Source of the DNA: an uncultured Candidatus Saccharibacteria bacterium
Lineage (GTDB): Bacteria; Patescibacteriota; Minisyncoccia; Phycocordibacterales; DSPV01
Assembly (NCBI GenBank): GCA_964617735.1
Contig: CAZTXT010000001.1
Span: 532,776-596,775 of the forward strand
Length of the DNA: 64,000 nucleotides
Direction: 5' to 3'
The notes under the pieces were generated by a model. It saw only the letters and a list, made by a program, of their open reading frames with translations, did no database searches and was not told where the DNA came from. This document shows, piece after piece, positions 17,444 through 59,043 of this stretch (position 1 is the stretch's first letter; each line of letters starts with the position of its first letter). Made by a program: the position numbers and the translations under genes.

Positions 17444-17558
17444 AGAGGTAGCGTATAGGGTACAGCGGAAAGCCCAGAGCGTCCAGTCAGAAACGCCCAA
17501 AATCACCTTAGCACGTCACTTCCATATACATAGCACATATGCTATACTGGCTGATACC

Positions 17559-37525: not shown

Positions 37526-38389
37526 TTGAGTACCAACGTGTTTAAAAACTATTACGCGCTGACGAAACCCGGCATCATCTACGGCAACCTCATTACCACG
37601 GCGACGGGGTTTTTGCTGGCATCCAAATGGAATGTAAATCTAGCACTACTTATCGCAACACTATCGGGTATCGCTCTCGTGATGGCATCGGGGTGCGTGT
37701 TCAACAACATCATAGACAGAGCCATCGACGCACGAATGGAGCGGACGAAAAGTCGCGGCCTAGTTACGGGAAAGATTTCAAAACAAAATGCGGTTATCTT
37801 CGCTCTCCTCCTTGGAATCGGCGGCCTCTTCATGCTCGGGAAATATACTAATCCCCTCTCGCTTGGCATCACCCTGGTTGGCGTCTTTGTCTATCTTGTT
37901 CTCTACACCATCGGCAAGCGCCGCTCCATGTACGGGCCCCTGATCGGAAGCATCGCGGGTGCAGTCCCGCCCGTGGTCGGCTACACTGCCGTAACCGCTC
38001 ATCTCGAGCTTGCGGCGATGATTCTATTTCTGATGCTCATTCTCTGGCAGATGCCGCATTTCTACGCGATCGCCATCTTCCGTAAGGAAGAATATGCCAT
38101 GGCAGGAATCCCGATACTCCCCATACAAAGAGGCATTCGGAGCACGAAGATCTTGATCGTGCTCTACATAATCGCCTTCGCGATCGTCTCGCTTTCCCTC
38201 ACCCTTTTGGGATCAAGCGGCCGCATCTACTTTTCGGTTGTCCTGGCGCTCAATATCGCATGGCTTTCTCTCTCCCTGTGGGGTTTCCGTGCAGCAGATG
38301 AAAAGCTCTGGGCTCGGAAGATGTTTTTCTTTTCGCTCTTTACCCTCCTTATAACCTTCATAGCGCTCGCGCTCGATGTGACACAATGA
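37526..38389 (+). CDS. cyoE: protoheme IX farnesyltransferase (heme O synthase)
   Basis: UbiA-family motifs (NxxxDxxxD: NNIIDRAIDARMERTKSRG). Confidence 0.85.
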   Translation: MSTNVFKNYYALTKPGIIYGNLITTATGFLLASKWNVNLALLIATLSGIALVMASGCVFNNIIDRAIDARMERTKSRGLVTGKISKQNAVIFALLLGIGGLFMLGKYTNPLSLGITLVGVFVYLVLYTIGKRRSMYGPLIGSIAGAVPPVVGYTAVTAHLELAAMILFLMLILWQMPHFYAIAIFRKEEYAMAGIPILPIQRGIRSTKILIVLYIIAFAIVSLSLTLLGSSGRIYFSVVLALNIAWLSLSLWGFRAADEKLWARKMFFFSLFTLLITFIALALDVTQ

Positions 38390-39693: not shown

Positions 39694-39920
39694 GTGATTT
39701 CACCACCTTTCTAAGTCCATTATAGCAATCGGGTGTATAATGCAAGCGATATACACGCATCTTCATGACTTTTTCATGGAGAAAGCTCTATCATTTTAAG
39801 TGCTCATAAAGATACAGAAGAAAAAGACAATCCCAGCAAGCCTAAAATCGGGGCGTGGGTTTTGTTTTGTGTCTTCCATTCAGCTGCCCGGGCACAGTGC
39901 CCCAGGTCTATGTAAACTCG

Positions 39921-40964
39921 ATGTCCGAGTCTGATTACAAAGAACTCCTTGACGAAGTGCTCGACGGGATCGTCGTCACTAACAGCGCGACTAAAGTGCT
40001 CTATGCCAATGCTGCGGCTGAACAGATATTGAAAGTGTCGCACGATAAACTCGCGCGTATAAACCTCGTCGACCTGGTGCACCCCAACGACCGTTCCAAA
40101 GTCAAAAAATACGCCGAAATCCTCAAAACGAAAAAGAGCATGGTCACGGTACGCAAGCTCATGCGCGGGGATGGCAAGTATATCTATATCGAACGCCGTA
40201 CCCGTCTTCTCCCCGACGGGTACCAACTCTCTGTATTCCGCGACATAACGGAACAAAAAGAATTCGAGCAACGGCGGGATATGTTCGTCTCGATCGCCAG
40301 TCACGAGCTACGCGACCCGCTTTCAAGCATCAAACTCTACACCAACCTTCTCTTGCAAATCTCACGGCACTGGCCCAATGCGACCGAGGCCGCAGATATA
40401 TTCGCAAAGATACAAAACCAGATCGACCGGCAGGCCATGCTCATCGAAGACCTGTTGAGCCTCTCGCGGATACAAACGGGTAAGCTCGCATTCCGCATGG
40501 ATTGGTTTAATCTCAAAAAACTCGTCGATGAAGCAGTCTTCCATATTCACTCGATAACCAAGCGGGTGTACAACGTCTCCGCCAAGGGGAACCCGCAGAC
40601 CCTGGTATTCGGCGATAAGAACCGTATCTATCAGGTGCTTATCAATCTGCTCTCGAATGCCGCGAAATATTCTTCCCCGCCGGATGAGATCCAGATTGCT
40701 GTGGAGGATCTTAAAGATTCACAGCGGGTGAGCGTGAAAGATAGCGGCGTGGGCATACGGAAAGAAGATATGGGTCGCATCTTCGAGCGGTATTATCGGG
40801 TCAACGAGGAGACGACTCCCGGCTTGGGCATTGGACTATTCCTTTCGCGCGAGATCATCGAACGACATGCCGGGACGCTCAACGTCAAAAGCACGCCGGG
40901 TGCCGGCTCGACATTCACCTTCACGGTCTCAAAGCAAGCTCAAGAGGAAATCTCCGAAAGCTAA
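39921..40964 (+). CDS. PAS-domain sensor histidine kinase (cytoplasmic, orphan)
   Basis: PAS domain, H-box HELRDPL and an HATPase domain. No adjacent response regulator. Confidence 0.8.
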   Translation: MSESDYKELLDEVLDGIVVTNSATKVLYANAAAEQILKVSHDKLARINLVDLVHPNDRSKVKKYAEILKTKKSMVTVRKLMRGDGKYIYIERRTRLLPDGYQLSVFRDITEQKEFEQRRDMFVSIASHELRDPLSSIKLYTNLLLQISRHWPNATEAADIFAKIQNQIDRQAMLIEDLLSLSRIQTGKLAFRMDWFNLKKLVDEAVFHIHSITKRVYNVSAKGNPQTLVFGDKNRIYQVLINLLSNAAKYSSPPDEIQIAVEDLKDSQRVSVKDSGVGIRKEDMGRIFERYYRVNEETTPGLGIGLFLSREIIERHAGTLNVKSTPGAGSTFTFTVSKQAQEEISES

Positions 40965-44832: not shown

Positions 44833-45372
44833 CTATAATGTCTTACAGTTTTGCTGTTCACCTCCAAGCGTCGGGGATATCTCATCCAGAAAATTGTACG
44901 AATTGTCGTCAGAAAATCCTAGCGACCTGAGTCGAGCTCGATACCCCTGAATTTCTTTATTTTGATACGTGATACAAAGATAATACGCAAATTGAGCATC
45001 AAAAAGCCCATACGAAACCATGCCAGCCCTGCTCATTGTCCAAATATCAGAGAGGAGGTTGAGGTAGTCATCGATTACATAATCGTCGAACCTTCCTCCA
45101 TTGGCAATTAGTAACGTGCCCCTGTCGTATAGATACTGTTCCTCGATTGCCTTACTTACCTCCCGATACTTAGGATTATCGAAAAACGTGCGATCGTAGT
45201 CATAAATAAACTGACGTTGAGCAACACGTTGATCAATGAGCTTGCCCGCATAAAACGAGAACGCGGTGCTAATAACGCTCGATATCAGAATGGAAATTAA
45301 GATTTCTCGAGCAATAGATGCCCGCTCATGTGACCAATACCTCTCGAACTGCTTCAAAAACATAGTCTCCAA
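44833..45372 (-). CDS. hypothetical membrane protein in AT-rich patch
   Basis: N-terminal TM helix plus a soluble domain. Local base composition is visibly more AT-rich than surrounding genes. Confidence 0.4.
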   Translation of the reverse strand: METMFLKQFERYWSHERASIAREILISILISSVISTAFSFYAGKLIDQRVAQRQFIYDYDRTFFDNPKYREVSKAIEEQYLYDRGTLLIANGGRFDDYVIDDYLNLLSDIWTMSRAGMVSYGLFDAQFAYYLCITYQNKEIQGYRARLRSLGFSDDNSYNFLDEISPTLGGEQQNCKTL

Positions 45373-45506
45373 AAGAGTGCTTACTTTCCAACGCGCTGGA
45401 GAGTTTTCATCCTGCCATCATCACCTTAATGACATAATGTTGCCTATATCTAGCCCTAGTAATCCACAGGGCCTTGCTTTATGGAGGCAATTCGGCTAGA
45501 ATTTAC

Positions 45507-46112
45507 TTACGTTACCTCGCCGGGCTTTGCGCCCGGTTTTTCCGTTTTTGGATCGACCCTTTGTGGAGAGCGCTCGATTTCGGACCTAATCGAATCCAGA
45601 CTGACAAACCATGAAGCTGTCCGGATTTCCCAGGCACAATTGTTCTCGTAAGCCAGAAACTTTATATGCTTCTGCCTCTTTAGTACGTTGTCTTTAGTTC
45701 GAATGAAATCGCTGTCGCCACTCACAAGATAAACGATATCGATATCTTCAAGATCAGCCATTATCTCGTCATGCATCTCAACATCAAAGTTGCACTTATT
45801 TCGGAACCCTAACGGCGATGAGGGGTCCCGGAGCCTCTTTAAATCTTTAGCGGTAACTGTATATCCTATTCTTTTAAAGTACTTTTCCAGAGCTTCACTG
45901 ATGGTTTTGGCAGGTTCATATCGGGGTCTACCCTTGTATATTCGTGCATGGACAATGGTATTTAGCTGAGCGACCCATTTGTAGAGCTTTTTGTAATCGG
46001 TCATCCATCCCGTCGCCTTACCCCGCTTGTACAAATTAGCGTCATCAACATACAGGCCTACTTTAGGCTTTGCTGGAAGTTTTATGGGGAGTGGTTGCTC
46101 CGAAGCGGACAC
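45507..46112 (-). CDS. NYN-domain (LabA/PIN-like) protein
   Basis: VGLYVDDANLY...DIDIVYLVSGDSDF matches the NYN/LabA nuclease-fold signature. Confidence 0.6.
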   Translation of the reverse strand: MSASEQPLPIKLPAKPKVGLYVDDANLYKRGKATGWMTDYKKLYKWVAQLNTIVHARIYKGRPRYEPAKTISEALEKYFKRIGYTVTAKDLKRLRDPSSPLGFRNKCNFDVEMHDEIMADLEDIDIVYLVSGDSDFIRTKDNVLKRQKHIKFLAYENNCAWEIRTASWFVSLDSIRSEIERSPQRVDPKTEKPGAKPGEVT

Positions 46113-46243
46113 ACCTCAAGTTTAACATATAGCTAATAGAGAGCACCAAGGGACAGCTGGCAAGCCTTTGCCTCACCCGGCAAATTGTCCCGTCTTTTGC
46201 GCTTTTGCGCTCCGACTACACTAACCAATTAGGAAAGTGACTT

Positions 46244-46432
46244 ATGAGCCGCAGCGCTTTCCTGTCGGACTCGTCCTCCGGCCGCGGACATGCTACTCCC
46301 TTGTACCCCGAACCAAAGCACGTGCTGGCCGAGCGAATCAGTCAACGGTTACGACTGATTTCCGATCAGCTTACGTCTCTTGAAGAGATCCTCCTCGACA
46401 TCGAGGATATGTTGGATCCCTTCATGAGATAG
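46244..46432 (+). CDS. small acidic hypothetical protein (62 aa)
   Basis: AGGAAAG about 7 nt before the ATG. No motif recognised. Confidence 0.25.
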   Translation: MSRSAFLSDSSSGRGHATPLYPEPKHVLAERISQRLRLISDQLTSLEEILLDIEDMLDPFMR

Positions 46433-46498
46433 TTCTATGGTTCGATTATCCTGCTCCTGGTCAGCAGAACTCGTTGTTACTATGGTATATCCTCTGAA

Positions 46499-46786
46499 CT
46501 CCGGGAGCAGGATTCGAACCTGCGACCAATCGCTTACACGTTATCCATTGTTACCAATGGCGTGGACTATATCACCGCCTTAGCAAATAAGCTTTAGGCG
46601 CCCCGGTATCTAGTCTCTACGGCGCCCCCGATTCGAAAATCAGGGTTCCCACGGTATTGCCCGATCCTACATTGCTTTACAATTGGATTTTGGGTTCCAC
46701 CGTTATCCCGGAGTTTTTCAATCCACCTTTCAGTGGAAAGCTGCAATTCCTTACAGGCGACTGCTCTACCGCTGAGCTATCCCGGA
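46499..46786 (-). tRNA. tRNA-Asn(GUU) interrupted by a group I intron (exon 1 46753-46786, exon 2 46499-46536)
   Basis: Exons join to UCCGGGAUAGCUCAGCGGUAGAGCAGUCGCCUGUUAAGCGAUUGGUCGCAGGUUCGAAUCCUGCUCCCGGAG. Cloverleaf has a 7-bp acceptor stem (U1-A72, G73), a GCUC/GAGC D stem, anticodon loop CUGUUAA, and a T-loop UUCGAAU. CCA is not encoded. Confidence 0.75.
46537..46752 (-). ncRNA. group I self-splicing intron (IC3-like, no ORF) in tRNA anticodon loop
   Basis: Contains the R-like GUAGAGACUAGA and S-like GAUAUAGUCC core elements. GCAG near the 5' end can pair with exon CUGU (U.G at the splice site), and the intron ends in G. Confidence 0.75.
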
Positions 46787-46953
46787 GCTCAATTGATATA
46801 CCTATTTATTTCTCAAGAGCAAGGTTCTTAAGCTATCCCGGAATATCGGCATCAATAGTAGCAGAATCTCGATACCAAGAAAAGCTGACCGAAAACGCAT
46901 TGTAATCCGTTCATTTCATCGAACCATCATCACCCAGCCGGTACATTTTAATT

Positions 46954-47373
46954 ATGCTGCATGAATCTGAAGCAGCTAAAGAAACGATATATGTTATGAA
47001 TGCTCAATCCCCACCAAACCTTGGATCAAACCCTGGATCAGAGGACAATTCTAACGATGCTGATGAAAACATCGAGAGAGGACCAATCCAACTGATTCCC
47101 GCCCAAAAGAAAGTCTATTATGCCGGAAAAGAGATCGCTCTGACGGCACGGGAGGCCAAGATCTTGGGCTTCTTGATGCAGAATGCCAACAAGATCATCG
47201 AACGCAAGCAGATTCTTGATTACGTCTGGGGAAGCAGCTTCAACCCGTTCAGCAACGTCGTGGATGTGCATATAAAGAACCTCCGACACAAACTCAATGA
47301 TGAAAAAGAGCAACCCTTGATCGAAACTATCTGGGGTTCGGGATATCGGCTTAGGATCCCTGATAAACTATAG
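46954..47373 (+). CDS. OmpR/PhoB-type winged-helix DNA-binding protein without receiver domain
   Basis: C-terminal trans_reg_C pattern (LTAREAKILGFLMQNANKIIERKQILDYVW...VVDVHIKNLRHKL...GYRL). The N-terminus is low-complexity and has no receiver domain. Confidence 0.6.
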   Translation: MLHESEAAKETIYVMNAQSPPNLGSNPGSEDNSNDADENIERGPIQLIPAQKKVYYAGKEIALTAREAKILGFLMQNANKIIERKQILDYVWGSSFNPFSNVVDVHIKNLRHKLNDEKEQPLIETIWGSGYRLRIPDKL

Positions 47374-47449
47374 CGCGAATGCGGCTTTTATATCCCCCAC
47401 CCTACTCGCGTTCTTTGCATTGTTATGTTAGTATTGAGCAGTCACTGAA

Positions 47450-48637
47450 TTGGAAGATGCTGCACGTCTGATGGCAAAAATCAAAACAACGTTAGCATAT
47501 ATCGGTCTCGGTCTGTTCATCATCGCCTGCGCACTCTCTTTAGCGCAGTTTAATGCGCGTGCAAGCGACGGAGATGAGCGCATTCTGGTCAAATATAAAG
47601 CAGAGAGCTCTGAAGAACAGATCGCGAAATTCGACAAGAAGTTCGGCTCTGATCTAGAAGAAATAATTCCCAAGCTGGGCGTGCGTATCGTAAGCGTTCC
47701 CGCAAACCTCGAGCGCGAAATAATCGGCAAACTCAAAAAGTATGCGCTCGTCGAATATGCCGAACCGGACGCCTTGGCCCAGGCCCTCTTCGTGCCGAAC
47801 GACCCGTATCTCCCCAATGAATGGGGTCTGGTAAATATCCATGCAACCAATGCATGGGATGTCGCTACCGGCACGTCGACAGTTAAGATCGCTATCCTCG
47901 ATACGGGCATCGATTATGACCACGGTGATCTCAAAAGCAAGGTCGTCTCGAACACCAATTTCACTGCCAGCAAATCGGCTACGGACCGCAACGGGCACGG
48001 CACCCATGTCGCCGGCATCGCTGCAGCGACGACGAACAATGCGCGCGGCGTCGCGAGCATCGGCTACTCATCCTCACTGATGAACGTCAAAGTCCTCTCC
48101 GACAACGGGAGCGGCTACTACTCATGGATCGCCAACGGAATAATTTTCGCCGCCGATAACGGCGCAAAAGTCATCAACATGAGCCTGGGCGGGAGCAGTG
48201 CTTCGCAGACCCTACAAGATGCTATCGACTACGCATGGTCAAAAGGCGTCGTGATCGTCGCTGCAGCTGGCAATAACAACAATAGCACGCCGAGCTACCC
48301 CGCATACTACGCCCACGTCATCGCCGTAGGCGCCACCGACGAAAATGACAGTCGCGCCAGCTTCTCTAACTTCGGCGACTGGGTAGATGTCGCGGCTCCT
48401 GGAGTCAATATCCTCTCCACCTATCCGCATATAGGCCGCACGGACCGTTATGCATATCTAAGTGGCACTTCGATGGCTTCGCCCTTCGTCGCCGGCCTTG
48501 CGGCGCTGGTATGGAATACTGCGTCCGGAACCGACAACCAGACCGTCCGAGACCGAATAGAGAACACTGCCGATACGCTCCCGACTTCCTGGACTACACA
48601 CGGCCTCATCGACGCCGCTAAAGCCGTTACGTTTTAA
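47450..48637 (+). CDS. secreted subtilisin-like serine protease (peptidase S8) with propeptide
   Basis: Signal peptide, an I9-like propeptide, and the catalytic triad motifs DTGID, HGTHVAG and GTSMASP. Confidence 0.85.
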   Translation: MEDAARLMAKIKTTLAYIGLGLFIIACALSLAQFNARASDGDERILVKYKAESSEEQIAKFDKKFGSDLEEIIPKLGVRIVSVPANLEREIIGKLKKYALVEYAEPDALAQALFVPNDPYLPNEWGLVNIHATNAWDVATGTSTVKIAILDTGIDYDHGDLKSKVVSNTNFTASKSATDRNGHGTHVAGIAAATTNNARGVASIGYSSSLMNVKVLSDNGSGYYSWIANGIIFAADNGAKVINMSLGGSSASQTLQDAIDYAWSKGVVIVAAAGNNNNSTPSYPAYYAHVIAVGATDENDSRASFSNFGDWVDVAAPGVNILSTYPHIGRTDRYAYLSGTSMASPFVAGLAALVWNTASGTDNQTVRDRIENTADTLPTSWTTHGLIDAAKAVTF

Positions 48638-48759
48638 GTTCTATCTTCTCAACGCAACGCCATCGATGGGCGTTTTTTACTGGCAGAAATTGACAGAAGT
48701 GTAGCTGGTGTGGTACTATCTTTCTTGGAAAAGATCCACCATCAACGAAAGGATCAAGT

Positions 48760-49170
48760 ATGAAAATCTGTTCTTTGTTAGCTGTTTTGTTGAGCGCATT
48801 AGTAGTATGCAGCTGTAGCACAATCCCTCCCCTAGAATTGGGAAAACTCCCTCGAGATTCAGTAACGATACAAAACTCGACCCGATATCATCTTCATGTG
48901 TACCGAAACGGCGACCCTTGGGTGGTTCCCTACTACGAGGGTACACGCTATAAGCTACCGATCGTAGTCAATCCATGGCAAGTGGTCACGCTATCAAACT
49001 GCACCGCTGCGCGTTTCGGCTCGAGCGTACGCATGGGCCTGCAAGCATTCAGGGTTGGACATGTCGGGTGCGTGGTGTTTGACCAGAAGATCGGACAGAC
49101 CGAAAAGCTGCTGCAGCTGGGCACCAACGCCCCGGCGCATATAGTACGGGTTATGCGAAGGGATTTTTGA
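48760..49170 (+). CDS. small lipoprotein
   Basis: MKICSLLAVLLSALVVCSCS lipobox-like signal. 136 aa. Confidence 0.45.
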   Translation: MKICSLLAVLLSALVVCSCSTIPPLELGKLPRDSVTIQNSTRYHLHVYRNGDPWVVPYYEGTRYKLPIVVNPWQVVTLSNCTAARFGSSVRMGLQAFRVGHVGCVVFDQKIGQTEKLLQLGTNAPAHIVRVMRRDF

Positions 49171-49295
49171 GACTGGAGTACAAACAATTCAGACAACGAG
49201 AGGAGTGATCCTCTCGTTTTTGTATCTCCCATTATCCACAACCAAACGTACCTCAGCTAAAAAAATGCGATAATGAAGATGCAGTAACACTACCC

Positions 49296-52200
49296 ATGCA
49301 TATACGCCGCGCTTCAGTGTTAGTTTTTTTAGGCATTCTCTCGCTCTTGAGCCTGTCAGCGCTCTTCTTCCTTCTACCTTCCGCTCCCGCACAAGCCGCA
49401 TGCGGCCATACTACCGAGTTTATTCCCTACCCAGACCCAAATGGCCCGGCGTACCTACCCAAAATCGGCTGGTTCGAACCGATCGGAAAATACTACAGTC
49501 CCTTCACCTATACCAATAACCTGCAGACGCCGACGATCCTCCCCCCGCCGGCGAATGGTTCGATGTGGGTCTATTACGATGACTGCGAGAGCTCTCCAAG
49601 CACTTCAACGATCAGCATCGGGGGAACCGATATACGCTGGACTGAAGCCAATACCTCCGGCACGCAATCATACGAGCCTCTGGCAAGCGTGCCGGTCGGC
49701 GGGTTTGGACCTAATCAACCCTACAACAACACCTGCGACCCCAGCAGATATTACTGTTACTGCCATATCTTAGGGAGTATAGCGTGTGTCTTGCAAGAAG
49801 GGTATTCGACCATCGGCTACTCAAATTATAGCGCCGACGGAGACATTCCTGCGGGAGAGCGGCAGACAAATAAGGGCTGGATCACTTCGGTACAAGATAT
49901 AAACCATTCTCTCGCAAGCCTCGTGGGTACCTCGACCCTAGAAGAAGATCAGTGGCTTGATAAGATTTCCCAGGAGAATACCGTGGGAGTCAGGGTGGAT
50001 ACTCCCGGCATCGGCTCCCACGTTTTTGACGTTCCATATACGAATTGCCTCATTGATGACGGAGTGAGCTTTCGAGCTCCCTATCCCGCCGAAATCAACG
50101 ACAAAACAAAAAACAAAGTGGTGTTCGTGCGCGGCAAGAGCGATTCAAATATCAATTATTTTATCACCAATGTTAATAAGGCAATCCAGGACGGTTTCTA
50201 TTCCGTTGACCCATTCAAGACGTATAAAGACAATTTTTCTTTCTATGTTGACCTCGATAAAATAGATGACTCGAACGTGCCCCTTGAAACCGTTTTCTTA
50301 AATGGGACTACTACGAGCTTCTTTCAACCCATTTTTGACACTGTGGTGCGGCTCACTTCAAGCTGCAGCGGGCTGCACGGCGGCACAGGAGATTCCTTTT
50401 ATATCTTCTATGTCGACCAACGCACTAGACCCCAATTATACCCAGGGTACTCTCGCACGGTTGCATATATTGATGATTCTCTCACAGACCTTACTCTAAC
50501 GACGTTGCACGAGTTTGGACATCAATTCGCTTCTCTCAACGATGAATACGAGAAATCAGTATATGGTGTTTTACCCGGAAGTTTCTTCGGGACATCGATT
50601 TTTGCGGAAAACTGTACCTCATTCCCCCGAACTAAATACAGAAATTCTTCAAACAACAAAGTGTACGGTTCACTTCAAAATACAGGGTGTGCATACATCA
50701 GTAATCTACCGGCCCCTAAACCCGATCCGCAGTATTACTTTAGACCCTCCATTGACAGCATTATGCGTTCTACGAGTCCCGCAGGAAGAAAATTCAATAT
50801 CATTGATTGCGGCTACATTATGGCAGCGATGTTTGGAGAGCCACACACCAAAGCTAATGCGGAGAAGTACTGGCCAGCGGTGGCTAAATCGCCCATAGGA
50901 AACATCAAAGGATGCGCGGCAATGGATGTGGATAGCGATGGCGTTCCTCCCCCAAACCTGTCAACTCCTGCATTCACCACTCCTTCCTCTTCGTCTGCAG
51001 CTCCCGGCCAATCGCTTACGGTGACTGGCTCTAACTTCACCCCAACTGACAATGCCGCCCATTTCACGAACATCGACAGCGGGCAGACCCAAGGGATAAG
51101 CATTGCTGACCCGAACTGGAACCTGACCGGTCATTGGGGCTTGGCCTTTGGATATCTGTTCGGAAACGGTGCCGCGGACTCATACCCGGCAAATGATACT
51201 GCAACCGCCACGGCACCGACGCTTAACCTGCTCGCTCACAATGCGGCGCGGCAAGCTACCCTACACTTCACCTCAAGCTGTTCCACTGAAACTTCCGACC
51301 CTGCAACCGGAAATTCCGACTACCTCGCGCTCGAGTGGAGCGGCGACGGTCTGCACTGGGGTCAAACCGCGCGGTGGAACACGTTCACTGACGGCTCTGC
51401 GCCCTCGGTGCATAATCTGCCTATCCCCTCTGCGCTCATAACTTCGAGCTTCGCCTTCCGTTTCCGGTGGGTCACGAATGCAACAGACAATAATCACAAC
51501 GGCTGCGGGATCAAGGATATATCGGTCACTGCTCCCGAACTCTCTTATGAAGTACTCGGCATCCCATCGCCGGATGGCACACACCTCACCTTTAAAATCC
51601 CGACCACGACACCTGATGGCGCAACGACTACCCCCGACGGATTCTCTGCCGTGCCCGTAGCCGGGCAGTATAAGCTCAAGCTCGGCGCATTCAATTCCGA
51701 CTGGTCAAATTCTCTACCGTTCACGATTCTGGGAGGAACCCCGCCGCCCGTACTCAACGCTCTGACTCCTTCTACCAGCGCGGCAGGAAATGCAGTGGAA
51801 CTAGAGGGTCGAAACCTGAAGTCGGGAACGTACGTCACCCTCTCCCGAGCAGGCATTCCGGCACTCACACTAACCGGCGAAAGCCACGCAGGCGGCAAGT
51901 ATTTCGATATCACCCTACCCGCCACTCTTGTAAGCGGAATCTATCAGCTCACCGCGACCAACGGAGGAGTGGCGAGCAACGCCCTTACCCTCACCGTAGT
52001 CGGTCCCCCCACCATCACGCTCTCGGCTTCTCAACTCGCCATTGCTGTAGGACAATCCGTTACGGTTTCGTGGAGCACGACAGACGCCACTACCTGTCAG
52101 GCGACGGTCAATGGCTCCAGCAGCGCGATCGCCCTGTCGGGTACTGCTGTGCTGACGCCGACGACTACCCTCTCCATCTCGCTCACCTGCACCGGTATCG

Positions 52201-53129
52201 GCGGCAGCAACAACAGAAGCATCACCATTACCGTAGTACCACCGCCGACGATCACTCTCTCGGCTACCCCCATCCCGGTCCTTTTGGGTGGAACTGCGAC
52301 AATCTCATGGAGCAGCACTAATGCGACGGGCTGCGCGGCAGCGGGAGCCTGGAGCGGCGCGCTTCCTCCCTCCGGCGCCACCTCCACTGCACAAATCAAC
52401 ACTCCGACCACCCGCACCTACACGCTCACCTGCACCGGAGTGGGTGGTACTACTACCCAGAGCTTTGCCCTACCGGTCGTCTCGCTCACTGCAGTGAGTA
52501 CCGACCAGGGTAGCTACCACGTCGGCAATCCGATGGATATCAACTGGAGAAGCACGAACCTCGCCTCCCCCATCGCCCTCTACCTCTTCGATTACAAAGA
52601 CCTGCACCTGGTGCTTCCCATCGCCTCGAACCTCCCCAACAGCGGCTCGTACACCTGGACCATCTCTGACGCGGTTGATACTGCAAACGACACCATCTAT
52701 CGCATCCGCGTTACCAGCTCCGCCCCGCTCCTCTACACCCAGACTAGCCCGGTGGAGATCCTCCCCGCCCTCCCTTCGATCACCCTCTTAGCGTCGCTCA
52801 AAACCATCGACATCGGCAAGTCCACGACGCTTGACTGGACTACGACACACGCTCTTTCCTGCCAGGGCACCACCGACCGCGGCGACCTGCCCGGCTGGAG
52901 TACTCCAGGACTCTCGGGATCTTTTACCTACACCGCAACTGCCCAAACCGGCCCCAGCATCACCTTCACGCTCACCTGCACGGGAGATGGGGGAACGGCA
53001 AGCCAGTCGGTACAGATTACGGTCAATGCAAGCCCCGCCCGAAACCATTCACCATTGAGCTTCCTCGCCGCACTCGTAGCGGCAGTACAGCGGGTGCTTG
53101 AGGGACTGACGGGCTCACTGTCGCGGTAA
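49296..53129 (+). CDS. giant secreted HExxH zinc metallopeptidase-like protein (M64-like motif) with IPT/TIG domain and three tandem Ig-like repeats
   Basis: Signal peptide; HEFGHQFASLNDEY near residue 400; IPT-like VLNALTPSTSAAGNAVELEGRNL; three repeats of about 95 aa each carrying T(L/V)SWS...C...TYTLTCTGxGG. Confidence 0.6.
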   Translation: MHIRRASVLVFLGILSLLSLSALFFLLPSAPAQAACGHTTEFIPYPDPNGPAYLPKIGWFEPIGKYYSPFTYTNNLQTPTILPPPANGSMWVYYDDCESSPSTSTISIGGTDIRWTEANTSGTQSYEPLASVPVGGFGPNQPYNNTCDPSRYYCYCHILGSIACVLQEGYSTIGYSNYSADGDIPAGERQTNKGWITSVQDINHSLASLVGTSTLEEDQWLDKISQENTVGVRVDTPGIGSHVFDVPYTNCLIDDGVSFRAPYPAEINDKTKNKVVFVRGKSDSNINYFITNVNKAIQDGFYSVDPFKTYKDNFSFYVDLDKIDDSNVPLETVFLNGTTTSFFQPIFDTVVRLTSSCSGLHGGTGDSFYIFYVDQRTRPQLYPGYSRTVAYIDDSLTDLTLTTLHEFGHQFASLNDEYEKSVYGVLPGSFFGTSIFAENCTSFPRTKYRNSSNNKVYGSLQNTGCAYISNLPAPKPDPQYYFRPSIDSIMRSTSPAGRKFNIIDCGYIMAAMFGEPHTKANAEKYWPAVAKSPIGNIKGCAAMDVDSDGVPPPNLSTPAFTTPSSSSAAPGQSLTVTGSNFTPTDNAAHFTNIDSGQTQGISIADPNWNLTGHWGLAFGYLFGNGAADSYPANDTATATAPTLNLLAHNAARQATLHFTSSCSTETSDPATGNSDYLALEWSGDGLHWGQTARWNTFTDGSAPSVHNLPIPSALITSSFAFRFRWVTNATDNNHNGCGIKDISVTAPELSYEVLGIPSPDGTHLTFKIPTTTPDGATTTPDGFSAVPVAGQYKLKLGAFNSDWSNSLPFTILGGTPPPVLNALTPSTSAAGNAVELEGRNLKSGTYVTLSRAGIPALTLTGESHAGGKYFDITLPATLVSGIYQLTATNGGVASNALTLTVVGPPTITLSASQLAIAVGQSVTVSWSTTDATTCQATVNGSSSAIALSGTAVLTPTTTLSISLTCTGIGGSNNRSITITVVPPPTITLSATPIPVLLGGTATISWSSTNATGCAAAGAWSGALPPSGATSTAQINTPTTRTYTLTCTGVGGTTTQSFALPVVSLTAVSTDQGSYHVGNPMDINWRSTNLASPIALYLFDYKDLHLVLPIASNLPNSGSYTWTISDAVDTANDTIYRIRVTSSAPLLYTQTSPVEILPALPSITLLASLKTIDIGKSTTLDWTTTHALSCQGTTDRGDLPGWSTPGLSGSFTYTATAQTGPSITFTLTCTGDGGTASQSVQITVNASPARNHSPLSFLAALVAAVQRVLEGLTGSLSR

Positions 53130-53362
53130 CAGGGAAAACCCTTGAAAAAATCTTTGGGATGTGTTAAAAGGTAGCACCATGAACCCGAAGAAGATCCTTT
53201 TTCTCGTGCTTGCCCCTCTCTATATACCGATGGCGGTGTTTCTTTTTCTTACCTTCGAATGGTGGAGCAATCTATGGGTTAAGGAATAGAAAAGACCCGT
53301 TTATAGGGCTGATTGAGAAAATCCACTCCGTCTGCATGGGATGGATTTTCTCAACGTATTAT

Positions 53363-53698
53363 TTACTTGGAGAAACCGAATGAACGGCGGGCAAGCCGAA
53401 CTTTCCGCACCGCTTCATAGAAAAAATACAGCGACGCAAGGGTAGACGCCCCTAGGAGCACCTGTACCCTCCATTCTGTGTGCAATACCGCCGAGAGTAG
53501 ATATTGCAGAAAGGATCCTGTGGCGAGCATCCCTTCGGCATTGGTATAGATGTTGCCGAAAGAAACCAACATGCTCAAGAGGACGAATGCTCCTCCCACC
53601 ACTGCGGCCTCCACGAGAAACGGCCGCGACATCGAGCGCATGAAAAAGATCAGCCGTACCCGCTGCATGATCGCTTCTAGTAATCGCGATTCGTACAT
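53363..53698 (-). CDS. putative membrane anti-sigma factor
   Basis: 111 aa with two TM helices. Its start lies 1 nt after the ECF sigma stop. Confidence 0.4.
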   Translation of the reverse strand: MYESRLLEAIMQRVRLIFFMRSMSRPFLVEAAVVGGAFVLLSMLVSFGNIYTNAEGMLATGSFLQYLLSAVLHTEWRVQVLLGASTLASLYFFYEAVRKVRLARRSFGFSK

Positions 53699-53699
53699 A

Positions 53700-54287
53700 T
53701 TATTGTACCGTTATATAAACTTGGGTGAATACTTTGCGTGCGCGGTGAAGCCGCGTCCGTATCGCACCCACCGATACTCGCTCGCGCTCCGCAACATCTT
53801 TGAGACTCTTCCCCAATAACACCAGCTGGCGCAACACTGATGAGAGCTGCTCCGGCATGCGTGAGAGAACGGAAAGGAAGGTATCCCTCGAAAGTCGGTG
53901 TTCCATACCATCGAGGTGTGCCGTTTCAAGAAGCGTCTCATCGAAGGCTTCGGACACATAGATCCGCTCGCGCGCCTTTTTGCGATAAACCGTCAGACAC
54001 GTATTGATGAGAATACGGTACGCCCATGACTGAAAAGACGCACCCGGCACTTTTCTAAACCGCTTGCCGTTGATGTATATTTTCACGAACGCTTCCTGCA
54101 CCGCATCCTCCGCATCCGCGGAAGTTTTCAGGATCGAGCCGGCTTTCCTCAAGAAGGCTGCACGATACCGCGCAACCAGTTCCGCGAACCGCTCCGGATC
54201 GGACTCTATAGATATCTGCAGAAGCTCCTCGTCCCTAAGACGAGCTTTGGCTTCTACTACTGCGCTCTCATTGAGGAGATTGGTCAT
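53700..54287 (-). CDS. RNA polymerase sigma factor, ECF (sigma-70 group 4)
   Basis: Region 2 (AFVKIYI...FQSWAYRILINTCL) and region 4 HTH (LGKSLKDVAERERVSVGAIRTRLHRA). Confidence 0.8.
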   Translation of the reverse strand: MTNLLNESAVVEAKARLRDEELLQISIESDPERFAELVARYRAAFLRKAGSILKTSADAEDAVQEAFVKIYINGKRFRKVPGASFQSWAYRILINTCLTVYRKKARERIYVSEAFDETLLETAHLDGMEHRLSRDTFLSVLSRMPEQLSSVLRQLVLLGKSLKDVAERERVSVGAIRTRLHRARKVFTQVYITVQ

Positions 54288-54870
54288 GTACCGTACCGCC
54301 CGCCTTGAACCGGAAGGCCAAGGCGGGGCGAAGCGCTAGTAAATTCGACCATATACCCAGTATAACATCTCGTCGCGGCGAAACATTACATAAAAAAGGC
54401 CGCGCAGTCTTTGAGTTTGGCCTCATAGTTACTGCGCGGTTTGAACTTTGGGGAAAGAGTCTTGTTGATGGTAGACATAACCCACGACCGTCGATATCTT
54501 CCAACCCCCTCGCGGCTTCGACCTAAGGGGGATGTTGCAGTCGAGGAAATACCCCAGCCTGTCCAGAATAGGCCTGATCAGGTCAGACCCGATGGCCGTC
54601 TCGTCACTGAGATCAGCAATAGAGCGGTGTGGACCAAGCTCTACCACAATGGACTTTACCAATCCCCGCACCCGATTTCGACTAAGGTGCTCGCGGGTAT
54701 GCCCGTTTAAGTTTGGATTCATAAGAGGTACTACACTTTAAAACGCGTCACACAAACGCGTAATTACTGCGCTTATAATACTTAAAGTCTTCCCCCAGTC
54801 AAGTGCGGCCGATGACGAAAGCAAAAAACGCCCAACTTGGGCGTTTCTTGCTAATGTGACCAGCAGAGGC

Positions 54871-57405: not shown

Positions 57406-58125
57406 CTAAGATCCTGCGAGCCGGATGACAAGATACATCAACCCCATGCCGAGTATGGTCATGTAGGTCGTCCAACGGCGCGGATGCGTATGCTGACTCT
57501 CGGGCAAAAGATCGCTCGCACCGATGTAGAGAAAGAAGCCCGAGAAAAGGGCTAAAAGGAGACCGAGCTTGCTTTTCTCGACGCTGAAGAAGAGCGTCGA
57601 GGCAACGCCAACGATGGGGGCCAGGGCGTCTGTTAAAAGCCAGCTCATCGCCATCGTTCTGCTTGCCCCGTTTTTGAGGACAAGGTTGACCGTATTGATG
57701 CCATCAGAGAAGTCATGGACTAATACCGCCGCTGCAACGATAACGCCGAGCGCGGGAGACACTTTGAAGGCAAGACCGATACCCACTCCATCGAGAAAGC
57801 TATGGACCGAAAGGCTCCCGGCCCCGAAAATCGCCCGTCGTTTATCCCCTTCCGGCATATCATCATGGCCATGTAGGAGGATCAAACGATCGAGGATAAG
57901 ATAGGTGAGAAACCCGACGGCGATGACTGTCGCGACAAAAGAGACTTCATAGTGGTTTACCGTTATCTCGAACGCCTCGGGCATGAGGTCGAAGAAGGCA
58001 ACCCCGATGACCGCGCCGGCGCTAAAGCCGAGCACCAGATGCAAACGGTCTTTAAGGTGCAGCGCAAAGAGACCGCCGAAGAGCGTGCAAAGAAACGCTG
58101 CAGTACTTATCAAGAACAGCATCAT
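57406..58125 (-). CDS. zupT: ZIP-family metal (zinc) transporter
   Basis: Eight TM helices and an HDFSDG motif typical of ZupT. Confidence 0.7.
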   Translation of the reverse strand: MMLFLISTAAFLCTLFGGLFALHLKDRLHLVLGFSAGAVIGVAFFDLMPEAFEITVNHYEVSFVATVIAVGFLTYLILDRLILLHGHDDMPEGDKRRAIFGAGSLSVHSFLDGVGIGLAFKVSPALGVIVAAAVLVHDFSDGINTVNLVLKNGASRTMAMSWLLTDALAPIVGVASTLFFSVEKSKLGLLLALFSGFFLYIGASDLLPESQHTHPRRWTTYMTILGMGLMYLVIRLAGS

Positions 58126-58224: not shown

Positions 58225-59043
58225 ATGGAAGACTTGTACCAGAAGCCGAAGAATAATTTATCCGTATCCATCGCGATCGTTGTCGCTGGAGGCTTGATCG
58301 CAGCCGCGCTCTATCTCTCGCGCGGGCCTGCGGCACCGGCCAGTGCGATACAAGCGGGAACCGCTGCTCCGACGACGCAAACAGGACAGGCGGAGATATC
58401 GATCCGTCCCATCAAAAGTGAAGATCATATGCTCGGTAATCCGGCTGCGCCGCTGGCACTCGTGGTATTCACCGATCTCGAATGCCCCTTCTGTAAAGAC
58501 TTCCATACAACTCTGGGAAAAGTCGCAGACACGTATGGCAAGAATGGCAGCGTACTATGGGTGTACCGGAATTTCCCACTGGCCCAATTGCATAGCCGCG
58601 CGCCCAAAGAAGCCGAAGCTGCAGAATGCGCCGATGAGCTGGGAGGAAGAGAGGCTTACTGGGCATTCGTCAACGATGTCTTCAAAACGACGACTTCTAA
58701 TGATACGCTCGACCCCGCCGAGCTTCCCCGGATCGCCCGCCGGGCAGGTCTGGACGTGACTAAATTCAACGCATGCCTCTCGAGCGGAAAATATACGGAG
58801 AAAGTACAGGCTGATTATGATGAGGCAGTCGCCGCAGGTGGACAAGGTACCCCATTCTCCGTCTTCGTCCTCAACAGACCGATCAGTGATAGCGCTGTGA
58901 ATTCTATAAACCAGATGATCACAACGTATCGGCTCTCCCCTGACACCTTTGTCTTCTCGAACGATAAGCAACATCTCTCGATGTCGGGTGCGCTTCCCTA
59001 TACGATGGTGCAGAAAGTCATTGACGCCCTCCTCTCAAAATAA
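58225..59043 (+). CDS. DsbA-like thiol:disulfide oxidoreductase (membrane-anchored)
   Basis: N-terminal TM and a CPFC active site in a thioredoxin fold. Confidence 0.7.
   Translation: MEDLYQKPKNNLSVSIAIVVAGGLIAAALYLSRGPAAPASAIQAGTAAPTTQTGQAEISIRPIKSEDHMLGNPAAPLALVVFTDLECPFCKDFHTTLGKVADTYGKNGSVLWVYRNFPLAQLHSRAPKEAEAAECADELGGREAYWAFVNDVFKTTTSNDTLDPAELPRIARRAGLDVTKFNACLSSGKYTEKVQADYDEAVAAGGQGTPFSVFVLNRPISDSAVNSINQMITTYRLSPDTFVFSNDKQHLSMSGALPYTMVQKVIDALLSK

What the first reader, a model, noticed from the sequence alone, without database searches (positions are those of the whole stretch)
46954..53129. Secreted protease cluster headed by an orphan OmpR-type DNA-binding domain protein
Four co-directional genes are involved. 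The first is a 139-aa protein made only of a low-complexity N-terminus and an OmpR/PhoB winged helix, with no receiver domain and no TM helix, so it is unlike ToxR/CadC. It is followed by a pre-pro-subtilisin, a lipoprotein, and a 1277-aa secreted HExxH metallopeptidase-like protein. This looks like a self-contained module for extracellular proteolysis or host and prey surface interaction, with a dedicated phosphorylation-independent regulator.
Basis: partly seen in the sequence, partly recalled or inferred. Interest (0 to 1): 0.6.

Follow-up and report, generated by a model that had tools for sequence, protein, structure and literature searches.

The report
Receiver-less regulator beside unlinked secreted proteases
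In a tiny-genome (Patescibacteria) bacterium, a DNA-binding regulator that has lost its phosphorylation domain sits next to two secreted proteases and a small lipoprotein. The four genes are not a conserved unit; only the lipoprotein and the large IgA-protease-like metallopeptidase recur together in related genomes.

Summary
They are a 139-aa OmpR-type winged helix with no receiver and no TM helix, a pre-pro-subtilisin with an intact triad, a small lipoprotein, and a 1277-aa secreted HExxH protein.

- **No missed receiver.** No receiver remnant lies upstream. That gap holds a tRNA-Asn split by a group I intron, a known Patescibacteria trait.
- **The regulator is a working gene.** One other receiver-less copy exists (77% identical), and comparison with it shows purifying selection. 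Its nearest relatives are full-length response regulators.
- **The large protein is M64-like.** It carries a divergent M64/igalysin catalytic domain. The full catalytic signature is invariant, the structural-zinc cysteines are missing, and six cysteines are conserved. The family has 247 clusters and is almost confined to Patescibacteria.
Of 35 related M64-like loci, none has an S8 protease nearby and none has an orphan wHTH. Terminator-like hairpins follow the S8 and lipoprotein genes, and no shared operator motif exists.
- **One pair is conserved.** The lipoprotein lies directly beside the M64-like gene in 6 of 28 testable loci.

Verdict: real parts, ordinary kinds, mostly a chance neighbourhood. 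Modest interest.

The parts
46954..47373 (+). Receiver-less OmpR/PhoB-type winged-helix protein, 139 aa (alternative start Met15 at 46996 gives 125 aa)
   Evidence: ORF. Trans_reg_C is the only Pfam domain. No TM helix and no receiver remnant upstream. It is 77% identical to the receiver-less P0002, 55% to full-length response regulators P0003/P0004, and 45% to the resident regulator's DNA-binding domain. pN 0.15 against pS 0.89 versus P0002.
47125..47352 (+). Trans_reg_C winged-helix DNA-binding domain (residues 58-133)
   Evidence: Pfam PF00486, 93.4 bits, covering profile positions 1-77 of 77. The recognition-helix segment SNVVDVHIKNLRHKL is conserved with full-length relatives.
47450..48637 (+). 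Pre-pro-subtilisin (S8A); the likely true start is ATG 47471, giving 388 aa
   Evidence: Peptidase_S8 195 bits and Fervidolysin_NPro-like 31.8 bits. D144, H176, N236 and S332 are present. The N-terminus MAKIKTTLAYIGLGLFIIACALSLAQFNARA|SD is hydrophobic. The mycosin model scores 208.8 bits, below its cutoff of 278.75.
48656..48674 (+). Terminator-like hairpin 19 nt after the S8 stop codon
   Evidence: 6-bp G+C-rich stem followed by TTTTAC. The structure is recovered by folding. It is a consensus match only, not shown to function.
48690..48719 (+). Promoter-like site upstream of the lipoprotein gene
   Evidence: TTGACA-18-TACTAT with an extended TG, matching 10 of 12 positions; it is the best site in 45400-54500. 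It is a consensus match only.
48760..49170 (+). Small exported protein, probable lipoprotein (136 aa), of a family found beside M64-like genes
   Evidence: No Pfam, NCBIfam or PDB match. An iterated local profile finds homologues in 6 M64-like loci, all directly adjacent to the M64-like gene. The lipobox Cys is aligned across members and Cys104 is invariant.
49195..49218 (+). Strong terminator-like hairpin 25 nt after the lipoprotein stop codon
   Evidence: 10-bp stem, 4-nt loop, then TTTGTATCTC. The surrounding 70 nt fold at -24.3 kcal/mol.
49296..53129 (+). 1277-aa secreted multidomain protein. Order of parts: signal peptide, ~210-aa region of unknown family, M64-like catalytic domain, IPT/TIG-like and unassigned beta-rich regions, three Cys-pair Ig-like repeats, and a Kre9/KNH-like Ig domain
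   Evidence: ORF. Signal-like N-terminus. Kre9_KNH 36 bits on the C-terminal fragment, and no hits for the N-terminal region. Repeats ending in TCTGxGG at residues 965, 1046 and 1228.
50037..50975 (+). Divergent M64/igalysin-like metallopeptidase catalytic domain (about residues 248-560)
   Evidence: 247 representative clusters at E<=1e-3. The profile hits PDB M64 entries 3p1v, 4df9 and 9ekk at E about 1e-5. 26 of 30 family members hit Pfam M64. The AF2 model has pLDDT 82.8. The top 17 Foldseek PDB hits are all M64 structures.
50508..50549 (+). Zinc-binding and catalytic motif HEFGHQFASLNDEY (residues 405-418)
   Evidence: H405, E406, H409, D416 and Y418 are invariant in 30/30 aligned members and E417 in 29/30. 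The Met-turn residue M490 is invariant in 30/30. The motif matches the igalysin HExxHxxxGxxD-E-Y of PMC12237041, with Ser at the Gly position.
52512..52724 (+). Kre9/KNH-like Ig-like domain (residues 1073-1143)
   Evidence: Pfam PF10342, 29 bits on the whole protein and 36 bits on the fragment; cutoff 24.6.

Best explanation
This is a neighbourhood of separately evolving genes in a Patescibacteria genome, not one conserved system.

(a) **The wHTH gene.** It descends from a full-length OmpR-family response regulator of this phylum that lost its receiver domain. The loss predates the split of two lineages, and the gene has been kept by selection since. With no receiver, it should bind DNA without phosphorylation. 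Its output would then be set by its own abundance, or it would be constitutive, as happens when the PhoB output domain is freed from its receiver. Its targets are unknown. By position alone the most likely target is the S8 gene 76-97 bp downstream, or the two may be co-transcribed.

(b) **The S8 gene.** It encodes an ordinary secreted pre-pro-subtilisin with an intact catalytic triad.

(c) **The lipoprotein and the 1277-aa protein.** These are the one conserved pair. The large protein carries an igalysin/M64-like zinc endopeptidase domain with every catalytic residue intact. It appears to be stabilised by disulfides rather than by the family's structural zinc, and it is followed by Ig-like repeats that would extend it from the cell surface. 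The membrane-anchored lipoprotein is inferred to act on or with this enzyme as an inhibitor, a tether or a maturation partner.

**Shown:** domain identities, loss of the receiver, purifying selection, conservation of the catalytic motif, the taxonomic range, and the linkage or lack of it.

**Inferred:** DNA-binding activity, enzyme activity, export, disulfides, and every regulatory link.
For: - **Receiver loss.** Trans_reg_C is the only domain and there is no remnant upstream. The upstream gap holds an intron-split tRNA-Asn on the other strand.
- **Descent from full-length regulators.** The best non-orphan relatives are 222-227-aa response regulators at 55-56% identity, one of them followed by a HisKA gene. 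Of 67 more distant OmpR-type loci that could be scored, 0 are receiver-less.
- **Selection.** Across 98 aligned codons versus P0002, pN is 0.15 and pS is 0.89 (saturated).
- **Not a module.** 0 of 35 M64-like loci have an S8 gene and 0 have an orphan wHTH. Terminator-like hairpins lie between the genes. No shared motif exists.
- **M64-like identity.**, with family features taken from PMC12237041.
- **Pair linkage.** 6 of 28 testable loci, with gaps of 30-137 bp.
- **Organism.** The M64-like loci are nearly all Taylorbacteria, Paceibacterota or other Patescibacteria. The source contig is 674,686 bp. The tRNA-Asn intron sits at position 35/36, as described for Patescibacteria.
- **Disulfides are plausible.** A DsbA-like thioredoxin is encoded at 58225-59043.
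Against: - wHTH-S8 linkage could not really be tested. Only two receiver-less members are known, and the second lies on a 1157-bp contig that ends 42 bp after its stop codon.
- The hairpin and promoter calls are consensus matches, and their number over the region equals the chance expectation.
- Patescibacteria promoters and this regulator's operator are unknown, so finding no shared motif is weak evidence.
- The lipoprotein is linked in only about 21% of loci, so it is not required by the enzyme family as a whole.
- No activity, export or DNA-binding data exist.
- The word-index searches are insensitive: they missed the large protein itself and every lipoprotein homologue. 'Only two orphans' is therefore a lower bound.
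Confidence: 0.6

Rival explanations
1. The four genes form one regulon or operon for extracellular proteolysis, switched on by the receiver-less wHTH acting as its dedicated regulator.
For: The genes are co-directional and adjacent, and three of the four products are exported. No terminator-like site was called between the wHTH and S8 genes. The regulator is under purifying selection, so it does something.
Against: - 0 of 35 M64-like loci carry S8 or an orphan wHTH.
- Hairpins with U-tracts follow the S8 and lipoprotein genes, and a promoter-like site precedes the lipoprotein gene.
- No shared operator exists.
- The second orphan has a different upstream context.
Confidence: 0.15
2. The receiver-less wHTH acts on the regulon of the resident two-component system (regulator at 25530-26213, kinase at 26122-27279). 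It would occupy the same or similar direct-repeat sites without needing phosphorylation, either as a signal-independent activator or as a competitor. Its position next to the proteases would then be incidental.
For: A canonical response regulator and histidine kinase lie in the same window. The recognition-helix segments are nearly the same, SNVVDVHIKNLRHKL versus SNVIDVHVKNLRRKL. The protease block is not conserved.
Against: Overall identity of the DNA-binding domains is only 45%. That helix is conserved across the whole set of relatives, so it says little about shared specificity. No target sites are known for either protein.
Confidence: 0.12
3. The exported-protein genes are controlled by the ECF sigma factor and its membrane partner, encoded convergently just downstream (53700-54287 and 53363-53698, minus strand), not by the wHTH.
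For: Sigma70_r2 and r4_2 domains are present. The following 111-aa ORF has a TM segment and starts 1-2 nt after the sigma gene ends. From general knowledge, ECF sigma factors typically govern envelope and secreted functions.
Against: Neither gene has a homologue in any of the 35 M64-like loci. No ECF-type promoter was sought or found.
Confidence: 0.08
4. The 139-aa ORF is a decaying fragment of a response-regulator gene with no function.
For: Its closest non-orphan relatives are all full length. The N-terminal 40 residues are low-complexity and not conserved between the two orphans. No obvious ribosome-binding site precedes either candidate start codon.
Against: pN is 0.15 with saturated pS across 98 codons in two lineages that are only 69% identical at the DNA level. 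The reading frame is intact in both, and the full domain matches profile positions 1-77 of 77.
Confidence: 0.05

Closest known systems
OmpR/PhoB-family response regulators, including phosphorylation-independent atypical members such as ChxR and HP1043 (PMC3960148)
   Same: It has a complete Trans_reg_C winged-helix effector domain, including the N-terminal beta-sheet segment and the recognition helix. Its nearest relatives are bona fide Patescibacteria response regulators. Like the atypical members, it must act without phosphorylation.
   Different: It has no receiver domain at all. ChxR and HP1043 keep a receiver fold and dimerise through it, so here the dimerisation surface is missing as well. 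From my own knowledge rather than a test here: PhoB's output domain alone is constitutively active (Ellison and McCleary, 2000), which is the nearest functional precedent.
ToxR/CadC-type and SARP-type OmpR-like regulators (other receiver-less users of this DNA-binding domain)
   Same: They pair an OmpR-type winged helix with no receiver.
   Different: It has no TM helix or periplasmic sensor (ToxR/CadC) and no BTAD or other extension (SARP). It is a bare domain with a short disordered tail.
M64/igalysin metallopeptidases: Thomasclavelia ramosa IgA peptidase, Bacteroides BF3526 and BACOVA_00663 (PMC12237041, PMC12402451)
   Same: It shares the metzincin-type fold and the family-specific motif HExxHxxx(G)xxD-E-Y, with Asp as the third zinc ligand. 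It has a Met-turn xIMx and a multidomain secreted architecture with downstream beta domains.
   Different: - Sequence identity is about 15% and TM-score about 0.45.
- The Gly of the motif is variable and is Ser here.
- The Met-turn starts with Ser rather than Cys, and only one of the two C-terminal-helix cysteines is present, so the structural zinc site is not conserved.
- Six other cysteines are invariant.
- The family is found in environmental Patescibacteria, where IgA is not a plausible substrate.
Secreted subtilisins (S8A) with an N-terminal inhibitor-type propeptide, e.g. fervidolysin
   Same: It has a signal peptide, a propeptide and a catalytic domain with the D-H-S triad in order.
   Different: Nothing notable. 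It does not reach the mycosin model's cutoff and has no C-terminal anchor.
Metzincin plus small cognate inhibitor pairs, such as serralysin/AprA with Inh/AprI (recalled from memory as an analogy only)
   Same: A small exported beta-rich protein is encoded next to a secreted metzincin-clan peptidase.
   Different: There is no sequence similarity to any known inhibitor family. It is lipid-anchored rather than soluble. Its fold is unknown because the model was unusable. Linkage is seen in only about 21% of loci.

Membership tests
OmpR/PhoB response regulator | C-terminal Trans_reg_C winged-helix domain | tested here: met
   PF00486 scores 93.4 bits against a cutoff of 26.2 and covers the full profile.
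OmpR/PhoB response regulator | N-terminal receiver (REC) domain with a phospho-acceptor Asp | tested here: not met
   No Response_reg hit. All NCBIfam regulator models match only their C-terminal ~100 positions and score far below cutoff. tblastn finds no receiver remnant in 45001-48000.
ToxR/CadC-like membrane regulators | Transmembrane helix after the wHTH | tested here: not met
   No hydrophobic 19-residue window, and the protein ends 6 residues after the domain.
SARP regulators | BTAD domain following the OmpR-type wHTH | tested here: not met
   The protein is only 139 aa and Trans_reg_C is its sole Pfam hit.
Subtilase S8 | Catalytic Asp, His and Ser in that order, and a Pfam S8 score above cutoff | tested here: met
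   D144 (DTG), H176 (HGTH), S332 (GTSMA) and oxyanion N236. Pfam scores 195 bits against a cutoff of 21.8.
Subtilase S8 | Secretory pre-pro organisation | tested here: met
   The Fervidolysin N-prodomain scores 31.8 bits against a cutoff of 21. The N-terminus is hydrophobic with an ARA|S site. No dedicated signal-peptide predictor was available.
Type VII secretion mycosin (TIGR03921) | Score above the equivalog cutoff | tested here: not met
   208.8 bits against a cutoff of 278.75.
M64/igalysin metallopeptidase | Zinc motif HExxHxxxGxxD with Asp as the third ligand (PMC12237041) | tested here: met
   H405, E406, H409 and D416 are invariant in 30/30 members. The Gly position is Ser413 here and Gly in 13/30.
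M64/igalysin metallopeptidase | Family-specific Glu and the 'tyrosine switch' Tyr directly after the Asp | tested here: met
   E417 is conserved in 29/30 members and Y418 in 30/30.
M64/igalysin metallopeptidase | Met-turn (C-I-M-R in IgAse) | tested here: met
   The sequence is S488-I-M490-R. Met is invariant in 30/30, and the first residue is Ser in 24/30 rather than Cys.
M64/igalysin metallopeptidase | Structural zinc site: Glu, the Met-turn Cys and two Cys in the C-terminal helix | tested here: not met
   The Met-turn Cys is replaced by Ser. Only C505 is found in the following helix segment. Six other cysteines are conserved instead.
M64/igalysin metallopeptidase | Pfam PF09471 at or above its gathering score | tested here: inconclusive
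   20.0 bits on the whole protein (below 26) and 26.2 bits on the isolated domain. 26 of 30 family members hit only weakly.
M64/igalysin metallopeptidase | Catalytic-domain fold | tested here: met
   The top 17 Foldseek PDB hits are all M64 structures (E 4e-7 to 4e-5, probability 1.00) and the next class is adamalysins at E>0.01. TM-score is only about 0.45. The model has pLDDT 82.8.
M64/igalysin metallopeptidase | IgA-cleaving activity | not testable with these tools
PMC12237041 notes that even the Bacteroides M64 structures are unlikely to be IgA peptidases.
Bacterial lipoprotein | Signal peptide ending in a lipobox with an invariant Cys | tested here: inconclusive
   The strict pattern [LVI][ASTVI][GAS]C fails, while VVCS-C fits the looser PROSITE-type pattern as I recall it. 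The Cys aligns with G/S-Cys in L014, L027 and L005, but L016 lacks it. No LipoP or SignalP was available.
Single operon or conserved gene cluster | Co-occurrence of the genes in related genomes | tested here: not met
   S8 is present in 0/35 loci, an orphan wHTH in 0/35, and the lipoprotein in 6/28 testable loci.
Single operon or conserved gene cluster | No internal terminators or promoters | tested here: inconclusive
   Terminator-like hairpins lie at 48656-48674 and 49195-49218, and a promoter-like site at 48690-48719. These are consensus matches only.

The most novel reading that the evidence does not exclude
The small lipoprotein and the giant M64-like surface protein form a Patescibacteria-specific protease-partner system. 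The partner would be a membrane-tethered inhibitor, an anchor or a maturation factor for a disulfide-stabilised igalysin. These episymbionts would use the system to cut proteins on the host-cell surface. In this lineage a receiver-less OmpR domain would then have been recruited as a signal-independent switch for the neighbouring secreted proteases.
Probability: 0.15. Interest if true: 0.55.

Novelty: new variant of a known kind. Interest (0 to 1): 0.3.

Why it matters
Patescibacteria live attached to other cells and have very few regulators, so how they control and deploy surface enzymes is largely unknown. Three modest points follow.

1. A response regulator that has shed its receiver yet stays under selection is a clean natural example of a two-component output being rewired to signal-independent control in a minimal genome.
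2. A large family (247 clusters) of igalysin-like peptidases that is almost confined to this phylum gives a concrete candidate for host-surface proteolysis. It keeps the catalytic site but replaces the structural zinc with cysteines.
3. The recurring lipoprotein neighbour is a testable handle on how that enzyme is restrained or anchored.

None of this overturns current understanding, and the four-gene 'module' itself should not be propagated as a system.

Tried and rejected
- **Receiver pseudogene upstream: rejected.** tblastn with 23 relatives found nothing. The gap instead holds an intron-split tRNA-Asn.
- **Recent duplication of the resident regulator: rejected.** Identity of the DNA-binding domains is only 45%.
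I replaced it with the exhaustive HMMER search.
- **Word-index search for the lipoprotein: only the query itself was found**. Homologues came only from a local iterated profile on fetched loci.
- **Metagenome scan with the orphan alignment.** The tool picked weakly specific patterns and returned only generic response regulators at 46% identity or less. I reused these as a background set.
- **Shared operator search in the four upstream regions: counts within the shuffle range** (timed out, 37).
- **Genomic island bounded by a tRNA 3' repeat: no repeat found**.
- **Phage origin of the orphan wHTH: no support.** Only generic hits below 41% identity appeared.
- **Lipoprotein as a known inhibitor family: no Pfam or PDB match**.
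- **AFDB50 fold search: unavailable**.
- **Literature searches** for Patescibacteria M64 and for stand-alone OmpR domains returned nothing specific.
- **Paralogues of the M64-like, S8 or lipoprotein genes in the window: none**.

Full report
**1. Observation**

The four co-directional ORFs are present exactly as described.
- **wHTH (46954-47373).** The 139-aa product has a full-length Trans_reg_C domain (93.4 bits, residues 58-133) and nothing else. It has no hydrophobic segment.
- **S8 (47450-48637).** The product is a subtilase (Peptidase_S8, 195 bits) with a fervidolysin-type N-terminal prodomain. It has a hydrophobic leader when started at ATG 47471, and Asp144, His176, Asn236 and Ser332 are intact.
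- **Small protein (48760-49170).** The 136-aa product has a hydrophobic leader ending VVCS-C and matches no known family.
- **Large protein (49296-53129).** The 1277-aa product has a signal-like N-terminus and one HEFGH at residue 405.

Intergenic gaps are 76/97, 122 and 125 bp.

**2. Was a receiver domain missed?**

No. Twenty-three relatives, almost all full-length response regulators, were used as tblastn queries against 45001-48000. They matched only the winged helix, and every other hit had E>0.1. The 840-bp upstream gap is not empty. On the minus strand, 46498-46787 encodes tRNA-Asn(GUU) interrupted by a 216-nt intron between anticodon-loop positions 35 and 36. The intron matches Rfam Intron_gpI at 36.3 bits, E 1.7e-7, below the gathering score. 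Default ARAGORN and the Rfam gathering scan had both missed it. Nakagawa et al. [quoted passage not shown] The feature is therefore already known, and it also points to the organism.

**3. Organism and setting**

The proteins occur on one NCBI contig of 674,686 bp. The M64-like gene's relatives come almost entirely from Taylorbacteria, Paceibacterota and other Patescibacteria assemblies. The rest of the window is housekeeping: Mur ligase, two PBPs, aminoacyl-tRNA synthetases, PriA, sigma-70 and an AddA-like helicase. It also holds a haem-copper oxidase subunit I, a UbiA-family gene, an orphan PAS histidine kinase, a DsbA-like thioredoxin and a ZIP transporter. A canonical OmpR-family response regulator lies at 25530-26213, with its histidine kinase directly after it.

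**4. The receiver-less regulator**

Among 5.8 billion proteins, the word-index search found the protein itself and one close relative, P0002. P0002 is 130 aa, 77% identical and also receiver-less. All remaining hits but one short 114-aa sequence (P0021) were 220-234-aa response regulators, the nearest at 56% identity. One of those nearest relatives is followed by a HisKA-type gene.
- **Origin.** The orphan's DNA-binding domain is only 45% identical to that of the resident regulator, so it is not a recent local copy.
- **Background rate.** Of 67 more distant OmpR-type loci that could be scored, none was receiver-less and none had an S8 neighbour.
- **Selection.** The two orphans are 69% identical at the DNA level. 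Over 98 aligned codons pN is 0.15 and pS is 0.89, which is saturated. Receiver loss therefore predates their split, and the gene has been kept by purifying selection.
- **N-terminal tail.** The N-terminal ~40 residues are low-complexity and not conserved. P0002's Met1 aligns with Met15 here, so the true start may be 46996.
- **Expected behaviour (inference).** The protein should bind DNA without phosphorylation. From established knowledge, removing PhoB's receiver gives a constitutively active output domain. Atypical family members such as ChxR and HP1043 act without phosphorylation but keep a receiver fold for dimerisation (PMC3960148), and that surface is absent here.

**5. The large protein**

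An exhaustive HMMER search with residues 30-600 found 247 representative clusters at E<=1e-3. All matched through a ~330-residue domain (protein residues about 270-598) inside large proteins.
- **Motif.** 136 of 149 hits carry HExxH in the matched stretch, typically as HExxHxxxxLxDEY.
- **Sequence profile.** A 30-sequence profile hit the solved M64 structures 3p1v, 4df9 and the T. ramosa IgA protease at E about 1e-5. 26 of 30 members hit Pfam Peptidase_M64 weakly, and the window's domain scores 26.2 bits against a cutoff of 26.
- **Fold.** An AlphaFold2 model built from that alignment is confident (pLDDT 82.8, pTM 0.83). Its 17 significant Foldseek matches in the PDB are all M64 structures, at about 15% identity and TM-score about 0.45.
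- **Family features.** Per PMC12237041, igalysins are defined by HExxHxxxGxxD with Asp as the third zinc ligand, a following Glu and Tyr, a C-I-M-R Met-turn, and a structural zinc bound by that Glu plus three Cys. Here H405, E406, H409, D416, Y418 and M490 are invariant in 30/30 aligned members and E417 in 29/30. The Gly is Ser (Gly in 13/30). The Met-turn begins with Ser (24/30), and only one Cys (C505) remains in the following helix. The structural zinc site is therefore not conserved.
- **Cysteines.** Five cysteines in the domain (357, 440, 465, 505, 540) are conserved in 29-30 of 30 aligned members. A sixth lies in the upstream TNC motif at residue 251. This fits an exported, disulfide-bonded domain, and a DsbA-like gene lies nearby.
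- **Flanking regions.** The 210 residues before the domain have no detectable relatives. After the domain come IPT/TIG-like and unassigned beta-rich regions, three ~85-residue Cys-pair repeats and a Kre9/KNH-like Ig domain.

I read this as an active zinc endopeptidase of a divergent, Patescibacteria-centred branch of M64. Its substrate is unknown, and IgA is implausible for an environmental episymbiont.

**6. Is the block conserved?**

The profile retrieved 35 loci from species-representative genomes, with up to 10 kb on each side.
- **S8.** No homologue was found in any locus.
- **wHTH.** Homologues were found in two loci. Both are ordinary 232-239-aa response regulators with their kinases, on the opposite strand and beyond an unrelated gene.
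- **Other neighbours.** The ECF sigma, its partner, the NYN protein and the upstream hypotheticals were never found.
- **Small lipoprotein.** This was the exception. An iterated local profile found homologues in six loci, out of 28 with enough upstream sequence to test. All lie directly next to the M64-like gene. Five are upstream and co-directional with gaps of 75-137 bp where measurable, and one is convergent with a 30-bp gap.
- **Lipoprotein family features.** Members share the leader, an aligned lipobox-type Cys in 4 of 5 complete members, and an invariant internal Cys. The family has no Pfam or PDB relative. No usable model could be obtained.

**7. Transcription units and operators**

A hairpin with a U-tract lies 19 nt after the S8 stop codon (48656-48674). 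A stronger one, with a 10-bp stem, lies 25 nt after the lipoprotein stop codon (49195-49218). The best sigma-70-like site in the region (TTGACA-18-TACTAT with TG) lies at 48690-48719, just before the lipoprotein gene. These are consensus matches, and their total number equals the shuffle expectation, so they are suggestive only. No such element was called between the wHTH and S8 genes. The four upstream regions share no 9-12-mer above shuffle levels, and no convincing repeat with 10-11-bp spacing was found; the only one is a weak mismatched heptamer pair upstream of the lipoprotein gene.

**8. Conclusion**

The best-supported picture has three parts:
- a receiver-less but selected OmpR-domain regulator of unknown targets, with the adjacent S8 gene as the only positional candidate;
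- an ordinary secreted subtilisin;
- a conserved pair of a lipoprotein and a divergent igalysin-like surface peptidase.

Rival readings and their weights are a four-gene regulon (0.15), cross-talk with the resident two-component regulon (0.12), control by the neighbouring ECF sigma (0.08) and a dead gene fragment (0.05). None can be excluded without transcript or binding data.

**9. Novelty and score**

Each part belongs to a known kind. What is new is limited to two things. One is a lineage-specific receiver-less OmpR domain. The other is a Patescibacteria-centred M64 branch that lacks the structural zinc site and often has a lipoprotein neighbour. I rate it a new variant of a known kind, with interest 0.3.

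Noticed in passing
window 46498-46787 (- strand): A tRNA-Asn(GUU) gene is split by a 216-nt group I intron at anticodon-loop position 35/36. Default ARAGORN and the Rfam gathering-threshold scan both missed it. It matches the Patescibacteria-specific feature reported in PMC13011429.
   Followed up: yes
window 25530-26213 and 26122-27279 (+): A canonical full-length OmpR-family response regulator is followed by a HisKA/HATPase-type kinase. It is 73% identical to P0005. Its DNA-binding domain is 45% identical to the orphan's, with a near-identical recognition-helix segment.
   Followed up: partly
window 53700-54287 and 53363-53698 (- strand): An ECF-type sigma factor gene is followed 1-2 nt later by a 111-aa ORF with a TM segment, a candidate anti-sigma factor. 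The pair is convergent with the large protease gene. Neither gene is found near M64-like genes elsewhere.
   Followed up: partly
window 39855-40964 (+): A cytoplasmic PAS-HisKA-HATPase histidine kinase has no adjacent response regulator, making it an orphan kinase in a genome that also has a receiver-less regulator.
   Followed up: no
window 34003-35979 and 37526-38389 (+): Haem-copper oxidase subunit I (COX1, 474 bits) and a UbiA-family prenyltransferase occur in a contig of about 675 kb from a small-genome bacterium. Such respiratory components are not universal in Patescibacteria.
   Followed up: no
window 17262-19082 (+): A single ORF combines an XRE-type HTH_3 domain (residues 115-165) with an EPSP-synthase/MurA-family domain (179-593). 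This would be an unusual fusion if the upstream start codon is real.
   Followed up: no
window 58225-59043 (+) and 57406-58125 (-): A DsbA-like thioredoxin and a ZIP zinc transporter lie a few kb from the Cys-rich zinc peptidase gene. This fits extracytoplasmic disulfide formation and zinc supply, but no linkage was tested.
   Followed up: no
window 45507-46112 (- strand): A NYN-domain (predicted RNase) protein lies just beyond the 3' end of the tRNA-Asn gene, in a stretch of slightly lower G+C (0.47-0.49). No repeat of the tRNA 3' end was found, so there is no evidence of an integrated element.
   Followed up: partly
loci L002, L004, L013, L016: M64-like genes occur as tandem or nearby pairs in several Patescibacteria genomes, indicating paralogue expansion of this surface-protein family.
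   Followed up: no
loci L036 and L017: One M64-like hit lies in an assembly labelled Pacearchaeota (a DPANN archaeon) and one in an assembly labelled Bacteroidota. These could reflect transfer between episymbiont lineages or mis-binning.
   Followed up: no
window 53055-53126 (C-terminus of the 1277-aa protein); P0032, P0039, P0041: A short motif S-x-x-F-L-A-x-V, followed by an amphipathic stretch, occurs about 24 residues from the C-terminus here and in P0039, and internally in two other homologues. It was found in only 4 of 151 proteins, so it may mean little.
   Followed up: partly
locus L037 444-713 (- strand): Immediately upstream of the second receiver-less wHTH gene is an 89-aa ORF matching only part of a UDP-glucose/GDP-mannose dehydrogenase. 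It is probably a gene fragment, which hints at rearrangement at that locus.
   Followed up: no
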